Positions 4,425 to 28,120 of a stretch of 30,935 nt of DNA are shown piece after piece (position 1 is the stretch's first letter; each line of letters opens with the position of its first letter). Source of the stretch: a virus (lineage: Duplodnaviria > Heunggongvirae > Uroviricota > Caudoviricetes); the IMG/VR virus record IMGVR_UViG_2690316316_000011, positions 1-30,935 of that record, one strand, 5' to 3'. The notes below the pieces were generated by a model. That model saw nothing but the letters and a program-made list of their open reading frames with translations, was not told the origin of the DNA and did not search any database. The position numbers were made by a program, and so were the translations under genes.

Positions 4425-8312
<3,888 letters not shown>

Positions 8313-20818: not shown

Positions 20819-23257
<2,439 letters not shown>

Positions 23258-23395
23258 ATGTTTTGTGTACATCTAAAATGTCACAAACGATTCAAAGCAT
23301 CCGGTGCCGAAAACTCGCATTGACAATCAGGCTGACGGAGTACCTTAATTATTAGCTTCACTTAATTAACTTGATTAAAATCACTTACTTTTCAT

Positions 23396-23424
23396 TTTAC
23401 ATTATCATTATTGCAATGTAATAT
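23396..23424 (+). promoter_or_regulatory. candidate sigma70-type promoter for the DUF3800-like gene
   Basis: TTTACA (-35) - 17 nt - TAATAT (-10) about 40 nt upstream of the TTG start; weak match, by eye. Confidence 0.25.
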
Positions 23425-23465
23425 CGAAAGCACATACACATTGCCGTCATAAAGGAATATCCAAA

Positions 23466-24587
23466 TTGGTAAAAAATGTCTACTTCGACGAATCAGGGTT
23501 TACAGGTAATAACTTACTTTCAAAAGACCAGCCTTTTTTTAGTTATGCAGCAGTCATAACTGATGAAGAAGAAAGTAAACAATGTGTAGATTACATAATA
23601 CAAAAGTACTCGATTGCAGCCGGAGAGCTAAAAGGTAGCACTCTCGTTAATAGCAAGAGACTTCAACCAGCCGTAGATGAGATACTTAATCATTTCCGTG
23701 GTCGTATGCGTGTGGTTGTTAACGAAAAGAAATATGCCCTTTCAGGGAAATTCTTTGAATATATTTTCGAGCCAGTATTAGCTGCTAAAAGCTCAATATT
23801 TTACAACCTTAAATTTCACCTATTCATCTCTAATATAATGTATTTTTCTTTAATAGCTAAGGATGAGTATTCTGAACTATTGCATTCTCGATTTGAAGAT
23901 TTTTCACGAGGTAAAATATTGGTTAATAGTTTTATCGAACCAGTTATTGGTACTAAAAACTCTGAAATTATGATGGACATTCATGATTTCGCCAAACATA
24001 ACATTTCAATAATTGAAGAGGAATATGAAGGTCTTGAGGGAACTGGGTTTGATAAGTGGTTGTTAGATTTGACAACTACTTCTCTTTATAATCTCTTATG
24101 CGATATGAGTAGTAGGTTTGGTACATTGAGGGCTATATGTGACAGTTCAAAACCATTAATCACCCATCAGGAATCATTCAATGAGATGATAGGTAATGAT
24201 GAAATTGTGTTCGAGACCTACAATAATAAAAAAGTCCCGATCACATTCAAACTCTCTGAGCCGATAATCCTTTCTGATTCTAAAGTCACGCATGGTATTC
24301 AAATTGCTGATGTGATAGCTGCGGCCAGCATTTATGTGCTTAATAAGAAAAAATCCAAAGAAAGATATCACGCAAAATGGCTAACTCATTTCGAAGATGA
24401 GATTTTTTATTGGCAATGTTGTGTTGTTCCCACACCAGAAAACCTTGACCCTAAAAATGTCAACAGCTATTTGAATAGATATATATTGCAAGAAATTGCT
24501 GAACGAAGCAGAAAATCAATACCTGTTTTAGATGATATTGAAAAGGATATCATACGAATTTCCAGAACATTAGCAATGGTGCGTTGA
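23466..24587 (+). CDS. DUF3800-like protein (putative RNase H-like fold), unknown function
   Basis: 373-aa ORF beginning with a TTG codon 10 nt after an AAGGA Shine-Dalgarno; N-terminal VYFDESGFTG and C-terminal HGIQIADVIAAASIY match my recollection of the DUF3800 signature; divergent from the structural operon; AT-rich with one AGTACT copy. Confidence 0.5.
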   Translation: MVKNVYFDESGFTGNNLLSKDQPFFSYAAVITDEEESKQCVDYIIQKYSIAAGELKGSTLVNSKRLQPAVDEILNHFRGRMRVVVNEKKYALSGKFFEYIFEPVLAAKSSIFYNLKFHLFISNIMYFSLIAKDEYSELLHSRFEDFSRGKILVNSFIEPVIGTKNSEIMMDIHDFAKHNISIIEEEYEGLEGTGFDKWLLDLTTTSLYNLLCDMSSRFGTLRAICDSSKPLITHQESFNEMIGNDEIVFETYNNKKVPITFKLSEPIILSDSKVTHGIQIADVIAAASIYVLNKKKSKERYHAKWLTHFEDEIFYWQCCVVPTPENLDPKNVNSYLNRYILQEIAERSRKSIPVLDDIEKDIIRISRTLAMVR

Positions 24588-24592
24588 AGTAT

Positions 24593-24635
24593 ATATCCTC
24601 ATGCTGTGTTATTATCACCAGCGGCATGAGGATAT
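24593..24635. repeat. 12-bp perfect inverted repeat (hairpin or operator)
   Basis: ATATCCTCATGC-(19 nt)-GCATGAGGATAT between convergent DUF3800-like and lipoprotein genes; loop too long for a canonical terminator. Confidence 0.4.
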
Positions 24636-24683
24636 CATATGCAATTATTTTATCATGCCACATACACTCAATCACTTAATAAT

Positions 24684-24974
24684 TTAACTTTGATGATTTT
24701 TATTATCTATATTATTATATTTTTGAATTCTTTCCTCGCGTATTAGACATGTAGTACTGCCATCGTCCATCTGGTAGATTGGATTGTAGATGCGACCGCA
24801 ATCACTCTGGAATTGAGGCCGATAGTACTTCACCCCGTTACGTGTACCTGCGTCAAACAGTACTACAACAGCCTTGTTATCAACATTGCCGACAAAAGCG
24901 TTATCCATGAATGAGTGATGTACGTTACTACAGCCTGTTAGCAGTACTACCAACATGACGATGAGTATTTTCAT
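24684..24974 (-). CDS. small lipoprotein (candidate superinfection-exclusion protein)
   Basis: 96-aa ORF; signal peptide MKILIVMLVVLLTG followed by lipobox Cys (LTGC-SN); two further Cys in the mature part. Confidence 0.6.
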   Translation of the reverse strand: MKILIVMLVVLLTGCSNVHHSFMDNAFVGNVDNKAVVVLFDAGTRNGVKYYRPQFQSDCGRIYNPIYQMDDGSTTCLIREERIQKYNNIDNKNHQS

Positions 24975-24984
24975 TTCTATTTCC

Positions 24985-25515
24985 TTATAGTAATTTTTCG
25001 CAGTGCTCGAAGCGGATCGGCTTGTACATGCCCTGTACTGCCCAAACTCCGCATCCCTTAAGCAACTGGTGATGGTTGGTGTCCTGTACCTGTACGATCA
25101 CCTTGTCACAGCATCTATGGATGTTCTGTAGCAGTACGGGGAACATGACGCTCCCGATCAACTCATCACTGAACCTTCTATTTAGCCGTACTACCTCATA
25201 ATCGCCGTGCAGCAATTCGACCGCCGAAGTACCACGCCTCCCAACGTCATCGAGCCAGTGCAAGCCAAAGTACTTTATGTAGTCTGCCGACTCAGTGGGA
25301 AGTATTGGAGTGCTGACAGCACAGAACAGACCATTTGACCTGAACCACTCTTCTTTCCTACGTATGACGCTCATCTGTTCATGGTGTAGCTGCCGCTTCA
25401 GTACATCCCCAGCAATAACCCGGCAGCCATGTATTTCTATCTGTGGCTGGATTTCCACTCCGAGCAGTTGCCCATTGAGAGAAGTGGTCGGCACAGACCA
25501 GTACTGGATGTTCAT
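24985..25515 (-). CDS. hypothetical Cys/His-rich protein
   Basis: 176-aa ORF co-oriented with the lipoprotein gene; visibly GC-richer than surrounding DNA; no motif recognised. Confidence 0.35.
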   Translation of the reverse strand: MNIQYWSVPTTSLNGQLLGVEIQPQIEIHGCRVIAGDVLKRQLHHEQMSVIRRKEEWFRSNGLFCAVSTPILPTESADYIKYFGLHWLDDVGRRGTSAVELLHGDYEVVRLNRRFSDELIGSVMFPVLLQNIHRCCDKVIVQVQDTNHHQLLKGCGVWAVQGMYKPIRFEHCEKLL

Positions 25516-25568
25516 TTAATGACCTCATTTGACCGTAAGTCATTAATATTGATCATTTTTATAGATCA

Positions 25569-25585
25569 TTCAATGCATCATTGAA
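25569..25585. promoter_or_regulatory. palindromic operator-like site
   Basis: TTCAATG-cat-CATTGAA inverted repeat in the divergent intergenic region between 24985-25515 (-) and 25677-25985 (+). Confidence 0.3.
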
Positions 25586-25639
25586 CAGTTTTATCGATAG
25601 GTTGTGATTTACTGGATTTTTAAAGCCACATACCCAACA

Positions 25640-25655
25640 CTGTATATACATACAG
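25640..25655. promoter_or_regulatory. candidate LexA (SOS) box
   Basis: CTGTATATACATACAG fits the enterobacterial LexA consensus CTGT-N8-ACAG with AT-rich spacer; overlaps a TATATA -10-like hexamer, 22 nt upstream of the 25677 start codon. Confidence 0.5.
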
Positions 25656-25676
25656 CACAACTATGGAGAACATCAA

Positions 25677-25985
25677 ATGAGTAAGAATGGCTACGATCCA
25701 GCAATCATTCGAGGGGTTCAGACCTTCACACATTGCGAGCGTGAATTCAGGGTTTGCTACTACGGTTCAGTACTGGATAAGTTTGCATGGGGTGATCGTG
25801 TGTTCTTCCAGAATGGACAAGGGAAGTACTGGTTCGGTACAGTTCAACGTGATTGCTTCGACCTGATCATTGAGTACCCCATCGCTTCAGTACTGGAAGG
25901 GTTAACTTATCTGGTGAGGGAAGATGAAATTGCCAGGCTTCATGAAGATGGTTGGTTTTGTGGACAAGAAGAACTACCGTTTTGA
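25677..25985 (+). CDS. hypothetical protein, possibly SOS-regulated
   Basis: 102-aa ORF with GGAG Shine-Dalgarno 8 nt upstream; preceded by the LexA-box candidate; followed by an AGTACT-flanked inverted repeat. Confidence 0.4.
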   Translation: MSKNGYDPAIIRGVQTFTHCEREFRVCYYGSVLDKFAWGDRVFFQNGQGKYWFGTVQRDCFDLIIEYPIASVLEGLTYLVREDEIARLHEDGWFCGQEELPF

Positions 25986-26096
25986 GTACTACCCCCTCAC
26001 ACCAAACAAACCTACCCATTAGCAAGGGGGAGTACTTTCTCGTAGTATACAGAACGAATAAATTCTTTGTATACTGCCGTTTTATCCTAAAGCGAT

Positions 26097-26783
26097 TTGA
26101 TTATGGACGAGAATAAAAAAGAAGTTATTGAAATAAGATCAGAAGATAAGGACTTTTTTGCAGAATTTATTGATTGTGAAGGTCCAATTATCCAAGATTC
26201 AATTGATCATAAAAAAATCACCCTTGCACTTGATAAAGCCCATGACATAAGAAAGTTTGAAATAGATCTCTATTGGAAGCGTGCTACTTATTTCTTTGCT
26301 TTTTTTACGGTTGTTACTGCTGCATTCGGTTTTACATTCTCAAATTACCGCTATACCTCTCTATCCCCCGCAATTGCTATTATCGGGATGACTTTTTCAC
26401 AGTGTTTTTATCATGTTAATATTGGCAGTAAGTACTGGCAGGAAAACTGGGAGTTCATTATTGATAAAATTGAATATTATGTGACTGGCAATCTTTACAA
26501 AGTTAGTTTCTTTGAAGATCATAATACATTAAGACCATCAGTGTCTAAAATTAACATTTATCTTAGCTGCTTTATCAAATGGGTTTGGATTTGTTCTCTA
26601 TTCCTATCTATTTTTAGCATACTCTTTCCGCATCCTATTTACTCATTGGTCTATTCATTAGTTGCATTCAAGCTGTATAAGCATACAGAACAGCACTGCA
26701 AAAAAACATTCAGTGATGAGTTAACTAATGATAAAAAAATCATTAGACGATTCCATTTCCGAAATCCAACATACAAAAAATAG
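26097..26783 (+). CDS. polytopic membrane protein, unknown function
   Basis: 228-aa ORF; soluble N-terminal ~60 aa then two pairs of hydrophobic helices (YFFAFFTVVTAAFGFTF / AIAIIGMTFSQCFY; IYLSCFIKWVWICSLFLSIFSILF / IYSLVYSLVAF) and a basic C-terminus; AT-rich, one AGTACT copy. Confidence 0.4.
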   Translation: MIMDENKKEVIEIRSEDKDFFAEFIDCEGPIIQDSIDHKKITLALDKAHDIRKFEIDLYWKRATYFFAFFTVVTAAFGFTFSNYRYTSLSPAIAIIGMTFSQCFYHVNIGSKYWQENWEFIIDKIEYYVTGNLYKVSFFEDHNTLRPSVSKINIYLSCFIKWVWICSLFLSIFSILFPHPIYSLVYSLVAFKLYKHTEQHCKKTFSDELTNDKKIIRRFHFRNPTYKK

Positions 26784-26789
26784 TAAATG

Positions 26790-26806
26790 AGGGGCTATAT
26801 GCCCCT
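26790..26806. terminator. bidirectional intrinsic terminator
   Basis: AGGGGC-tatat-GCCCCT hairpin with flanking T-rich sequence between convergent genes 26097-26783 (+) and hcp (-). Confidence 0.6.
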
Positions 26807-26811
26807 TTCTA

Positions 26812-27297
26812 CTATGCTGTAGCTCGTTCATTCCACGCATCTGTATACTGGATATTACCGTCACAGTACTTCCATGTAATTCTTTCGTAGCGTAATTCTA
26901 CACGCTCCATATGATTACATTTTTCAACGGTCTTTGTATTGTACATTATCGGGGTTACGGCAACGACTTTGACGCCTTCAAGAAGCATATTGAAGTACTC
27001 TACTTCCTGGCCTGCATCATTAATCTTGTACCATTTAATTTCGACACTTTTAAGCGACTGGCCTGTAGCAACTGCTTTATAGAGATATGGCGTAGAGCTA
27101 TCAAATTCCTTTTCTAATACCATCGGTGCATGGATTCGAGTTCCAGTAATTTTACCAGTATTATTATCGGTAGGAATATGTAGACCATGACCGAAACCAA
27201 TAATTTCTACACTTCCCTCGCGATCCATTACATCGCATGACCCCTTAATTAATGCTCCACCATCATCTTTAAGCCATAAGTGTGCGGGGATTGCCAT
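26812..27297 (-). CDS. hcp: Hcp (type VI secretion system tube protein) homolog
   Basis: 161-aa ORF; MAIPAHLWLKDDGG N-terminus, IPTDNNTGKITGTRIHAP, PYLYKAVATGQSLKSVEIKWYKINDAGQEVEYF and RVELRYERITWKY blocks parallel enterobacterial and Vibrio Hcp sequences recalled from memory; AAGGAG Shine-Dalgarno 7 nt upstream. Confidence 0.8.
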   Translation of the reverse strand: MAIPAHLWLKDDGGALIKGSCDVMDREGSVEIIGFGHGLHIPTDNNTGKITGTRIHAPMVLEKEFDSSTPYLYKAVATGQSLKSVEIKWYKINDAGQEVEYFNMLLEGVKVVAVTPIMYNTKTVEKCNHMERVELRYERITWKYCDGNIQYTDAWNERATA

Positions 27298-27309
27298 TGA
27301 AAACTCCTT

Positions 27310-27666
27310 TTAATCGTAAAGCCAGCGACCAGCCTTAGCTGATTCGACAAGCATTTTGAGTGTTAATGGTTGTGGTTCAATCCATTCCCATTTATTATCT
27401 TTTGATCGTAAAAAATTCAATGGAAGTATTACTTCTTCATTGGGCCAGTACTTTCCAAATGTGAAGTTTTTCCGATCAACATTGAACTTCGTAAAGTAAT
27501 CATCAAGTATCTCTATCGCATCTTCATCTGCCCAAGGATACTTTCCTGTTGATAGGCTTGTTTCCAGCGTCAATGATGGCTTCCTGAAAAATGGAAAAAC
27601 ACGCCCATTCCAATTGTCGTTATACCAATTCATGACCTGCTGCTCTATGCTATCTGAATCGTTCAT
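27310..27666 (-). CDS. small soluble Trp-rich protein, unknown (operon partner of hcp)
   Basis: 118-aa ORF 12 nt upstream of hcp and 7 nt downstream of the 148-aa ORF. Confidence 0.4.
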   Translation of the reverse strand: MNDSDSIEQQVMNWYNDNWNGRVFPFFRKPSLTLETSLSTGKYPWADEDAIEILDDYFTKFNVDRKNFTFGKYWPNEEVILPLNFLRSKDNKWEWIEPQPLTLKMLVESAKAGRWLYD

Positions 27667-27673
27667 TCAGTAC

Positions 27674-28120
27674 CTACCATAGACGATCTGAAGGATGGGC
27701 GATTGTATTGTACTTATTGACAGCTTTGAAACTGATTATAGAAACGTCTGCTGCGAGTATAACCCAACCAACAAGAGGAATAGTCCTGCCAACGAATGTA
27801 CCTAATCGCTGTGTCATAACTCGTTTGGCATTAGGTGGAAATCCAATCCAAGTGGGCATTCGTACTGGCATCATTCGCCCTCTGAATAATTTTCTGGAAT
27901 AGATTGATGCCACGGATGTTCCGGGGGTTGCCCCTGCGAGTTTACCTGCTACTGTGACACTATTCGAACCAAGATAGATCCCTGCTACTGCGGCTATGTC
28001 TGAGATACCAAAGTGATCTAATGTTTCATCAACCATGATCCAGAAGAATAGCTCCCCTGCACTCAGATTGGACGAACCGTCATAGAAGTATGTTCCGTTA
28101 AGTTCTTCTACTGTATCCAT
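27674..28120 (-). CDS. hydrophobic glycine-zipper-like protein, unknown (first gene of hcp operon)
   Basis: 148-aa ORF with Gly/Ala-rich hydrophobic stretches (ISDIAAVAGIYLGSNSVTVAGKLAGATPG; GRTIPLVGWVILAADVSIISF). Confidence 0.4.
   Translation of the reverse strand: MDTVEELNGTYFYDGSSNLSAGELFFWIMVDETLDHFGISDIAAVAGIYLGSNSVTVAGKLAGATPGTSVASIYSRKLFRGRMMPVRMPTWIGFPPNAKRVMTQRLGTFVGRTIPLVGWVILAADVSIISFKAVNKYNTIAHPSDRLW

What the first reader, a model, noticed from the sequence alone, without database searches (positions are those of the whole stretch)
23466..24587. DUF3800-like gene with TTG start, divergent from the packaging operon
The 373-aa ORF starts at a TTG with a proper Shine-Dalgarno and carries the N-terminal YFDESG and C-terminal HGIQIADVIA signatures I associate with DUF3800, a poorly characterised family that recurs in phages and defence islands. 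It is plus-strand, AT-rich and AGTACT-poor, so it looks like acquired cargo. Candidate roles are a nuclease-like anti-defence or exclusion function.
Basis: partly seen in the sequence, partly recalled or inferred. Interest (0 to 1): 0.6.

Follow-up and report, generated by a model that had tools for sequence, protein, structure and literature searches.

The report
Prophage DUF3800 nuclease-like cargo gene
A prophage carries a self-contained gene for a DUF3800 protein whose predicted fold resembles RNase HII, sitting where a related prophage carries a known anti-phage nuclease, which makes it a reasonable but untested candidate for a one-gene phage-defence function.

Summary

The gene is discrete cargo. 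It is AT-rich, transcribed divergently from terS, and shared between phages at higher identity than the phage backbone. It stays intact in IS-riddled prophage remnants. In Vibrio cholerae a homologue is a single-gene integron cassette.

It has no conserved partner gene, no reverse transcriptase, no cas genes and no known DUF3800-associated RNA. Neighbours of its relatives are often defence proteins (Avs2, Lamassu, Old-like, restriction-modification, PDC candidates). A related E. coli prophage carries an OLD nuclease in the same slot.

The best reading is a stand-alone RNase H-like nuclease acting in superinfection exclusion or defence. That function is inferred, not shown. It is a new member of a known, uncharacterised family, of moderate interest.

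The parts
23466..24587 (+). Coding sequence of the 373-aa stand-alone DUF3800 protein (TTG start, TGA stop). Predicted RNase H-like core: beta1 3-10 (D8, E9), beta2 24-31, beta3 81-87, beta4 221-226 (D226), beta5 268-270, helix 276-292 (Q279, D282). A helical insertion spans about residues 88-218 and C-terminal helices span 300-372.
23452..23456 (+). Shine-Dalgarno AAGGA, 9 nt upstream of the TTG start; conserved in enterobacterial orthologues.
23396..23424 (+). Sigma-70 promoter-like site TTTACA-17-TAATAT, about 40 nt upstream of the start. It is a candidate own promoter for the gene (consensus match only).
23388..23430 (.). Imperfect palindrome (16-nt arms, 81% complementary) overlapping the two divergent promoter-like sites. 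A possible operator; not tested.
24593..24635 (+). Perfect 12-bp inverted repeat (19-nt loop) starting 6 nt after the stop codon. The region folds at -24.6 kcal/mol, z = -3.2. It is probably the transcript end or a stabiliser between convergent genes. There is no canonical T-run directly after it.
23447..24603 (+). Extent of the exchangeable module: the stretch shared with a diverged prophage (L089) at 80.8% nucleotide identity while the adjacent terminase genes are 68.7% identical.
22641..23222 (-). Small terminase subunit gene, first gene of the divergent packaging/structural operon. It marks the left border of the variable slot.

Best explanation
This is a stand-alone, prophage-borne DUF3800 protein. 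It has a predicted metal-dependent RNase H-like core, closest in fold to type 2 RNase H, with the carboxylates D8, E9, D226 and D282. The core is elaborated by a helical insertion of about 130 residues and a C-terminal helical bundle. The gene is an autonomous accessory unit (a 'moron'): it faces away from the late operon, appears to have its own promoter-like site, a weak TTG start and a downstream hairpin, and lies in a variable slot next to terS. The most likely role is that the lysogen makes it at a low level and it acts alone as a superinfection-exclusion or anti-phage nuclease, cleaving an invader's nucleic acid. By analogy with the fold the substrate would be an RNA-containing duplex or an RNA/DNA hybrid. 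The helical domains probably provide substrate or trigger recognition. What is shown: the gene is real and under purifying selection, it belongs to DUF3800, its predicted fold is RNase H-like, the candidate catalytic residues are conserved, it travels as a one-gene unit, and it has a defence-island and hotspot context. What is inferred: catalytic activity, the substrate, and the defence phenotype.

For: Active site: in 76 cluster representatives at 24-42% identity, D8 is kept in 74/76, E9 in 74/76, D226 in 76/76, D282 in 74 (plus 2 E), Q279 in 73, S272 in 76 and K88 in 76.

Selection: dN/dS 0.05-0.10, and the ORF is intact in two IS-disrupted prophage remnants.

One-gene unit: no neighbour family recurs (183 Pfam families in 149 neighbours, none in more than 3). 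The V. cholerae homologue is a cassette bounded by attC repeats with about 75 nt of spare sequence. The 150 best-scoring of 334 clusters at E<=1e-30 are nearly all 340-420 aa apart from shorter fragments, so there are no domain fusions among them.

Defence context: adjacent same-strand genes include Avs2 (1766 bits), PDC-S46 (792), PDC-S06 (735), LmuB with a full Lamassu operon (375), LeoBC and a type II methyltransferase; wider neighbours include DrmD, IetS, PD-Lambda-5, PD-T4-6 and restriction enzymes.

Hotspot: a related E. coli prophage (terminase genes 77% identical) has an OLD-family nuclease (PADLOC Old 251 bits; AAA_15 plus OLD TOPRIM) in the same divergent position next to terS. Variable prophage slots of this kind hold antiviral genes in P2-like phages (PMC9122126), and V. 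cholerae integron cassettes are rich in single-gene defence systems (10.1101/2024.07.02.601686).
Against: There is no experimental evidence for any DUF3800 protein. Csx32 in the CASK system was not assigned a role.

The protein matches no PADLOC model of a known or candidate defence system.

The link to RNase H is structural only: there is no sequence-profile similarity to RNase HII or to any PDB chain.

I could not read model coordinates, so clustering of the four carboxylates in space was not verified.

Guilt by association was not measured against a matched background.

How a constitutively made nuclease would spare the host is unexplained.

Other genes in the same cargo region (Hcp, DUF1493, a membrane protein) are not defence genes, so the region is not purely a defence locus.
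Confidence: 0.5

Rival explanations
1. Anti-defence factor serving the phage. An RNase H-like enzyme could destroy an RNA/DNA-hybrid or RNA component of a host immune system, for example retron msDNA or guide RNAs, and so help the phage or prophage establish itself.
For: It is phage-borne, and the fold suits hybrid or RNA substrates. DUF3800 domains co-occur with retrons and CRISPR systems, so they interact with such nucleic acids in some contexts.
Against: Only 1 of 50,697 deposited phage genomes encodes a homologue, and that copy lies beside an integrase. BFVD has a single marginal structural match. The gene is kept intact in decayed prophages that can no longer make virions. It occurs in chromosomal defence islands, plasmids and an integron cassette. 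It is transcribed away from the late operon with its own promoter-like site, which is the layout of lysogen-expressed genes.
Confidence: 0.12
2. A housekeeping nucleic-acid enzyme of the phage's own life cycle, such as primer removal, R-loop processing or recombination-intermediate processing during replication.
For: RNase H-type enzymes do this in many replicons, and the fold is closest to RNase HII/HIII.
Against: The gene is absent from the closely related prophage L114, which has an OLD nuclease in its place, so it is dispensable for this phage type. Its composition and AGTACT content differ from the backbone. It is exchanged as a discrete module. It occurs outside phages in most loci.
Confidence: 0.07
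3. A selfish mobile nuclease, either a transposase or homing-type enzyme or an addiction toxin. Its spread would reflect its own mobility rather than any benefit to the host.
Against: No terminal inverted repeats flank the gene. Each locus has a single copy. In V. cholerae it is mobilised by attC sites, not by its own ends. RNase HII/HIII score clearly above integrases and transposases. No adjacent antitoxin-like gene recurs.
Confidence: 0.05
4. A partner of a non-coding RNA, as proposed for other DUF3800 genes. The protein would process or use a structured RNA encoded nearby or elsewhere, with a role not necessarily related to defence.
For: Eleven RNA motifs were found next to DUF3800 genes (PMC5737381).
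Against: No Rfam family reaches its threshold in the window. No DUF3800-I to -XI, drum or skipping-rope match was found in 42 related loci totalling about 413 kb. The V. cholerae cassette leaves only about 75 nt of non-coding sequence. The test covers described motifs only.
Confidence: 0.08

Closest known systems
Pfam DUF3800 (PF12686), an uncharacterised family
   Same: Scores above the gathering threshold. Has the N-terminal DE and C-terminal QxxD motifs. RNase H-like fold, as already predicted for other members.
   Different: The 149-position Pfam model is spread over residues 4-287, so this subfamily has a helical insertion of about 130 residues and an extra C-terminal helical region of about 85 residues. 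It forms its own group: 334 clusters at E<=1e-30, whose 150 best-scoring members are nearly all 340-420 aa. PHROG 12991 matches it end to end.
Type 2 RNase H (RNase HII / HIII / eukaryotic H2A)
   Different: No detectable sequence relationship. The last conserved carboxylate (D282, with Q279) sits on the helix after beta5, which published work on other DUF3800 proteins calls a catalytic rearrangement. It has large helical additions. It is accessory and mobile rather than a core gene.
Retron type VII DUF3800 effector (subtypes VII-A1 and VII-A2)
   Same: Same Pfam family, and the same predicted RNase H2-like fold.
   Different: No reverse transcriptase or msr/msd nearby, and no PADLOC match at E<=1. 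The retron-linked proteins lack the Q of QxxD, whereas Q279 is nearly invariant here.
CRISPR-associated DUF3800 proteins (TPR-DUF3800 with Cas12a2/Cas12a3; Csx32 with Cas13 CASK)
   Same: Same domain family, in an immune context.
   Different: No TPR fusion and no cas genes in the window or in the loci examined. One distant locus has a CRISPR array about 1 kb upstream. Those proteins are also uncharacterised.
P2 Old and other single-gene nucleases in prophage variable hotspots
   Same: The same kind of position and layout. A related prophage has an OLD nuclease in exactly this slot next to terS, which fits the hotspot concept of PMC9122126.
   Different: An unrelated fold (RNase H-like against ABC ATPase plus TOPRIM), and no phenotype is known for this gene.

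Membership tests
Pfam DUF3800 (PF12686) | Whole-protein HMM score at or above the curated gathering score | tested here: met
   42.3 bits against 21, E = 1.6e-10, model positions 1-145 of 149
Pfam DUF3800 (PF12686) | N-terminal DE motif and C-terminal QxxD motif | tested here: met
   D8-E9 and Q279-I-A-D282, each conserved in at least 73 of 76 diverse relatives. Motif definition as quoted in PMC7736814.
RNase H-like superfamily (fold level) | Central mixed beta-sheet in the RNase H arrangement with flanking helices; conserved carboxylates on beta1, at the end of beta4 and on the helix after beta5 | tested here: met
Type 2 RNase H (RNase HII/HIII) | Sequence-profile membership (Pfam RNase_HII or similarity to solved RNase HII) | tested here: not met
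   No RNase_HII hit at E<=1. No PDB sequence hit with the single sequence or the profile. hhalign against E. coli RnhB gives probability 0.1.
Type 2 RNase H (RNase HII/HIII) | Cleavage of RNA/DNA hybrids or at single ribonucleotides in duplex DNA | not testable with these tools
   Needs purified protein and substrates.
Retron type VII | Adjacent retron reverse transcriptase and msr/msd ncRNA | tested here: not met
   No RT among neighbours in the window or in the 95 loci clustered or scanned. No PADLOC match for the protein.
DUF3800-associated structured RNAs (DUF3800-I to -XI, drum, skipping-rope) | One of the described RNA motifs next to the gene | tested here: not met
   No Rfam hit at the gathering score in the window. 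Only sub-threshold unrelated matches in 23150-26150. None in 42 related loci.
CRISPR-associated DUF3800 (TPR-DUF3800, Csx32) | TPR fusion and/or a cas12a2, cas12a3 or cas13 operon | tested here: not met
   DUF3800 is the only Pfam domain above its cut-off; a sub-threshold Cas9_PI match (14.2 bits against 25, E = 0.037) is the only other listing. No cas genes in the window.
Known or candidate anti-phage systems (PADLOC-DB v2.0.0) | Match to a system's protein model | tested here: not met
   0 families at E<=1.
Prophage accessory ('moron') gene in a defence hotspot | Discrete unit with its own expression signals, atypical composition, variable occupancy of the same slot in related phages, and known defence genes as alternative occupants | tested here: met
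   Divergent orientation, a promoter-like site and a hairpin. GC 34.5% against 40.6%. Module borders 23447-24603. An OLD nuclease in the same slot of L114, and an extra 187-aa gene inserted in L002. The expression signals are consensus matches only.
Prophage accessory ('moron') gene in a defence hotspot | Protective phenotype in the lysogen | not testable with these tools
   Needs phage challenge assays.
Integron gene cassette (for the V. cholerae homologue, 44% identical) | A single ORF bounded by attC recombination sites within a cassette array | tested here: met
   VCR-type repeats at L103 5880-6003 and 7157-7280 flank the gene at 6001-7161, with 17 repeat copies in 13 kb.

The most novel reading that the evidence does not exclude
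The roughly 375-aa stand-alone DUF3800 subfamily is a previously unrecognised single-protein anti-phage system. It would be an RNase HII-like nuclease whose helical insertion senses infection, spread by prophages, integron cassettes, plasmids and defence islands. That would give the first function for DUF3800 and a foothold for the retron- and CRISPR-associated members.
Probability: 0.4. Interest if true: 0.6.

Novelty: new member of a known kind. Interest (0 to 1): 0.4.

Why it matters
DUF3800 is a widespread family that recurs beside retrons, Cas12a2/Cas12a3, Cas13 and eleven orphan RNA motifs, yet I found no reported activity for any member. This subfamily is the simplest form of it: one gene with no partner, small enough to be an integron cassette. 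It sits in a prophage slot that holds an OLD nuclease in a sister phage. That makes it a clean entry point for testing what a DUF3800 nuclease cleaves and whether it protects against phages. If it does, it adds a compact RNase H-type effector to the list of defence systems. If it does not, the gene is one more prophage accessory gene of unknown role.

Tried and rejected
- Known DUF3800 RNA partners: an Rfam scan of the window at gathering scores, a permissive scan of 23150-26150, and scans of 42 related loci (about 413 kb) found none.
- Sequence link to RNase HII: phmmer and a profile search against PDB sequences, and hhalign against E. coli RnhB, all found nothing. The relationship is visible only in structure.
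- A conserved partner gene: all-against-all clustering of 1,128 neighbour ORFs from 95 loci, and Pfam on 149 close neighbours, found no recurrent family.
- A Lamassu effector role in L045: rejected, because a complete LmuA-LmuC-LmuB set lies upstream of the DUF3800 gene.
- An IS or transposase reading: no terminal inverted repeats.
- Membership of a named defence system: no PADLOC match. None of the 16 V. cholerae integron systems described in 10.1101/2024.07.02.601686 is described as DUF3800 or RNase H-like.
- The helical insertion and C-terminal domain: Foldseek against the PDB and BFVD gave no informative match.
- Megablast against deposited phages: no match.
- Supplementary text of Weinberg 2017 on the DUF3800 RNAs: not held in the library.
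- D271, which looked like the RNase HII 'DS' aspartate: rejected as catalytic because it is kept in only 34 of 76 relatives.

Full report
**The observation**

The window holds an ORF at 23466-24587 on the plus strand. It is 373 codons long and starts with TTG. AAGGA lies at 23452-23456, 9 nt upstream. The D8-E9 motif is only eight codons into the ORF, and no other start codon lies between the upstream stop and that motif. NCBI's annotation of two E. coli genomes places the start at the same codon.

The TTG and its Shine-Dalgarno sequence are conserved in all enterobacterial orthologues examined, from 75 to 100% amino-acid identity. More distant homologues have ATG at the same codon.

The gene is a real, selected coding sequence. 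A search found 417 homologues. Pairwise dN/dS among enterobacterial copies is 0.05-0.10, with no indels.

**Family and fold**

Pfam DUF3800 (PF12686) scores 42.3 bits against a gathering score of 21. PHROG 12991, of unknown function, matches end to end at 1e-114. NCBIfam and PADLOC give nothing.

The 149-position Pfam model is stretched over residues 4-287, so this protein has a large insertion. An AlphaFold2 model built on a 60-sequence alignment is confident, with pLDDT 88.6 and pTM 0.86.

Foldseek agrees on the top hit but only weakly. The resemblance is structural only. Neither the sequence nor its profile finds any PDB chain, and hhalign against E. coli RnhB is null.

The order of secondary-structure elements fits type 2 RNase H: beta1, beta2, helix, beta3, long helix, beta4, beta5, helix. 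Added to that core are a helical insertion at about residues 88-218 and C-terminal helices at 300-372.

**Candidate active site**

I checked conservation in 76 representatives of 50%-identity clusters that are only 24-42% identical to the query:

| Residue | Location | Conserved in |
|---|---|---|
| D8 | end of beta1 | 74/76 |
| E9 | end of beta1 | 74/76 |
| D226 | end of beta4 | 76/76 |
| D282 | helix after beta5 | 74/76, plus 2 Glu |
| Q279 | helix after beta5 | 73/76 |
| S272 | | 76/76 |
| K88 | | 76/76 |
| E54 | | 75/76 |
| K56 | | 73/76 |
| G11, G14 | | 75/76 each |

D271 looked like the RNase HII 'DS' aspartate but is not conserved (34/76).

The pattern fits an active two-metal nuclease of the RNase H type. 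The last carboxylate sits on the helix, which matches the 'catalytic rearrangement' noted for another DUF3800 protein (PMC10910872). I could not read the model's coordinates, so spatial clustering of these residues is inferred, not shown.

**Genomic setting in the window**

The window is a prophage. On the minus strand it runs from tail and head genes to a lambda-type large terminase (20819-22726) and a small terminase (22641-23222). The exact protein occurs on contigs where the element ends in a large serine recombinase next to the host prkA/yeaG gene.

The DUF3800 gene faces away from terS across 243 nt. That spacer holds these features:
- A promoter-like TTTACA-17-TAATAT site for the gene.
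- An overlapping divergent promoter-like site.
- A strong minus-strand terminator-like hairpin just before the terS ATG.

A perfect 12-bp hairpin follows the stop codon (-24.6 kcal/mol, z = -3.2).

The gene is 34.5% GC against 40.6% for the structural module.

**The AGTACT signal**

The hexamer AGTACT is the most frequent hexamer in the window: 89 copies against about 10 expected, in all reading frames. This is a natural trait of this prophage family, at 2-4 per kb in phage DNA against about 0-0.1 per kb in the E. coli flanks.

The DUF3800 gene has 1 site where 3.7 are expected. That is not significant alone. In three diverged lineages pooled, the count is 1 against 10.1 expected (P = 5e-4).

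**It is a discrete, exchangeable, single-gene unit**

- A diverged prophage (L089) shares window 23447-24603 at 80.8% identity, while the adjacent terminase genes are only 68.7% identical.
- Two E. coli genomes carry the gene intact beside terminase genes that are broken by IS elements.
- In Serratia marcescens an 80%-identical copy lies in a small island right after icd, and a duplicated icd 3' end is visible in one strain.
- In Vibrio cholerae a 44%-identical homologue is a superintegron cassette. VCR/attC repeats lie at L103 5880-6003 and 7157-7280, around a gene at 6001-7161, which leaves about 75 nt of non-coding sequence.
- Across 95 loci no neighbour family recurs. The closest 149 neighbours of 45 loci hit 183 different Pfam families, and none occurs in more than three proteins.
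- A search of 1.84 billion cluster representatives finds 334 clusters at E<=1e-30. The 150 best-scoring ones listed are nearly all 340-420 aa apart from shorter fragments, so there are no fusions among them.

**What it is not**

- Not retron-linked: there is no reverse transcriptase nearby and no PADLOC retron model matches.
- Not CRISPR-linked: there is no TPR fusion and there are no cas genes.
- No known DUF3800 RNA: none of the DUF3800-associated RNA motifs, drum or skipping-rope is detectable in the window or in 42 related loci.
- Not an insertion sequence: no terminal inverted repeats flank it.

**Context points to conflict systems**

Same-strand genes directly adjacent to homologues include:
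- Avs2 (1766 bits)
- PDC-S46, inside a type I restriction-modification locus right after hsdS (792 bits)
- PDC-S06 (735 bits)
- A complete Lamassu operon (LmuB 375 bits)
- LeoBC
- A type II methyltransferase

The wider set of neighbours adds DrmD, IetS, PD-Lambda-5 A and B, PD-T4-6, type II, III and IV restriction enzymes and a CARF regulator. Eight loci have a tyrosine integrase, and three Melainabacteria loci have a tRNA gene immediately upstream.

The most telling comparison is a related E. coli prophage whose terminase genes are 77% identical. It carries an OLD-family nuclease (PADLOC Old 251 bits; AAA_15 plus OLD-like TOPRIM) in the same divergent position next to terS. A third relative has an extra 187-aa gene inserted there.

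This is the signature of a prophage hotspot of antiviral genes, as described for P2-like phages (PMC9122126). V. cholerae integron cassettes are likewise enriched in one-gene defence systems (10.1101/2024.07.02.601686).

Homologues are nearly absent from deposited phage genomes. One of 50,697 has one, next to an integrase. The viral structure library gives a single marginal match. Homologues occur on 63 plasmids.

**Mechanism, with its limits**

The best-supported reading is this. The lysogen expresses the gene from its own promoter, at a low level given the conserved TTG start. The product is a metal-dependent RNase H-like endonuclease that works alone against incoming phages or other mobile DNA. 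By analogy with the fold, it probably acts on RNA-containing duplexes. The helical additions probably supply recognition or gating.

The fold, the conserved residues, the autonomy of the gene and its context are shown. The activity, the substrate, the trigger and the phenotype are inferred.

No DUF3800 protein has a reported activity in the literature I could search. The most recent paper I found on a DUF3800 protein (Csx32 in the Cas13 CASK system) leaves it unassigned.

The rivals are less well supported, for the reasons given in their entries:
- An anti-defence role.
- A phage replication role.
- Selfish mobility.
- Partnership with an undescribed RNA.

**Verdict**

The gene is a new member of a known but uncharacterised family. 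The RNase H-like fold of DUF3800 and its association with immune systems were already published.

This analysis adds four things. It delineates a stand-alone subfamily. It shows that the subfamily travels as a one-gene module (prophage moron, integron cassette, islands). It shows that the subfamily lacks the known RNA or protein partners. It shows that the gene occupies a slot used by an OLD nuclease in a sister prophage. Interest is moderate: a good, cheap experimental candidate rather than a surprise.

Noticed in passing
window 1-30935 (for example 63 sites in 482-23222): The palindrome AGTACT is the most frequent hexamer in the window: 89 copies against about 10 expected from base composition. 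It occurs in all reading frames and in non-coding DNA. Related prophages have 2-4 per kb, while the flanking E. coli chromosome has about 0-0.1 per kb. It is therefore a DNA-level signature of this phage family, and its function is unknown.
   Followed up: partly
window 23228-23257 (minus strand) and 23388-23430: A 12-bp GC-rich hairpin followed by TTTTTT runs straight into the terS ATG and sequesters its Shine-Dalgarno sequence. A promoter-like site on the same strand lies about 140 nt upstream and overlaps a palindrome. This looks like a late operon controlled by antitermination or attenuation.
   Followed up: no
window 26097-28120: The cargo downstream includes an octameric membrane protein (RipA / 8xMP family, 26097-26783, plus strand), an Hcp-family type VI secretion protein (26812-27297, minus strand), DUF1493 (27310-27666) and an STM2901/DUF8209 protein (27674-28120). 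This is a T6SS-related set carried by a prophage.
   Followed up: no
window 24684-25985: Three small genes of unknown function have no Pfam or PADLOC match: 96 aa with a lipoprotein-like N-terminus, 176 aa and 102 aa. Their GC content (39-50%) is well above that of the DUF3800 gene, and AGTACT is very dense there (12 sites in about 1.4 kb). They are absent from the E. coli G3/10 copy of the element, so the cargo region is a mosaic.
   Followed up: partly
L114 9982-11802 (E. coli ESBLEC_MG48 prophage): A sister prophage carries an OLD-family ATP-dependent nuclease in the slot next to terS, and a GIY-YIG nuclease gene further along its cargo region.
   Followed up: yes
L097-L102, and L100 12494-12658 (Serratia marcescens): An 80%-identical DUF3800 gene lies directly after icd in an island of about 5 kb holding three or four unknown genes. 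One strain keeps a 54-aa duplicated icd fragment at the far end, so this looks like the remnant of an element integrated at icd.
   Followed up: no
L070 4790-9357 (also L071, L078; gut spirochaete MAGs): A more distant homologue (31% identical) overlaps the end of a type I R-M specificity gene by 4 nt and is followed after 18 nt by a PDC-S46 / AAA_13 ATPase. The arrangement recalls prrC embedded in an hsd locus.
   Followed up: partly
L005 920-1488 and L018 7235-7410: One homologue lies about 1 kb downstream of a 10-repeat CRISPR array (CRISPR-DR4). Another is followed immediately by isrK and C4 antisense RNA genes, which are phage immunity-type RNAs.
   Followed up: no
L113 3950-5977 (Acinetobacter johnsonii plasmid pR4WN_E10B): A 675-aa 'ATP-binding protein' with no Pfam or PADLOC match overlaps the start of a 38%-identical DUF3800 gene by 10 nt. 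This may be a two-gene ATPase-nuclease variant of the system.
   Followed up: partly
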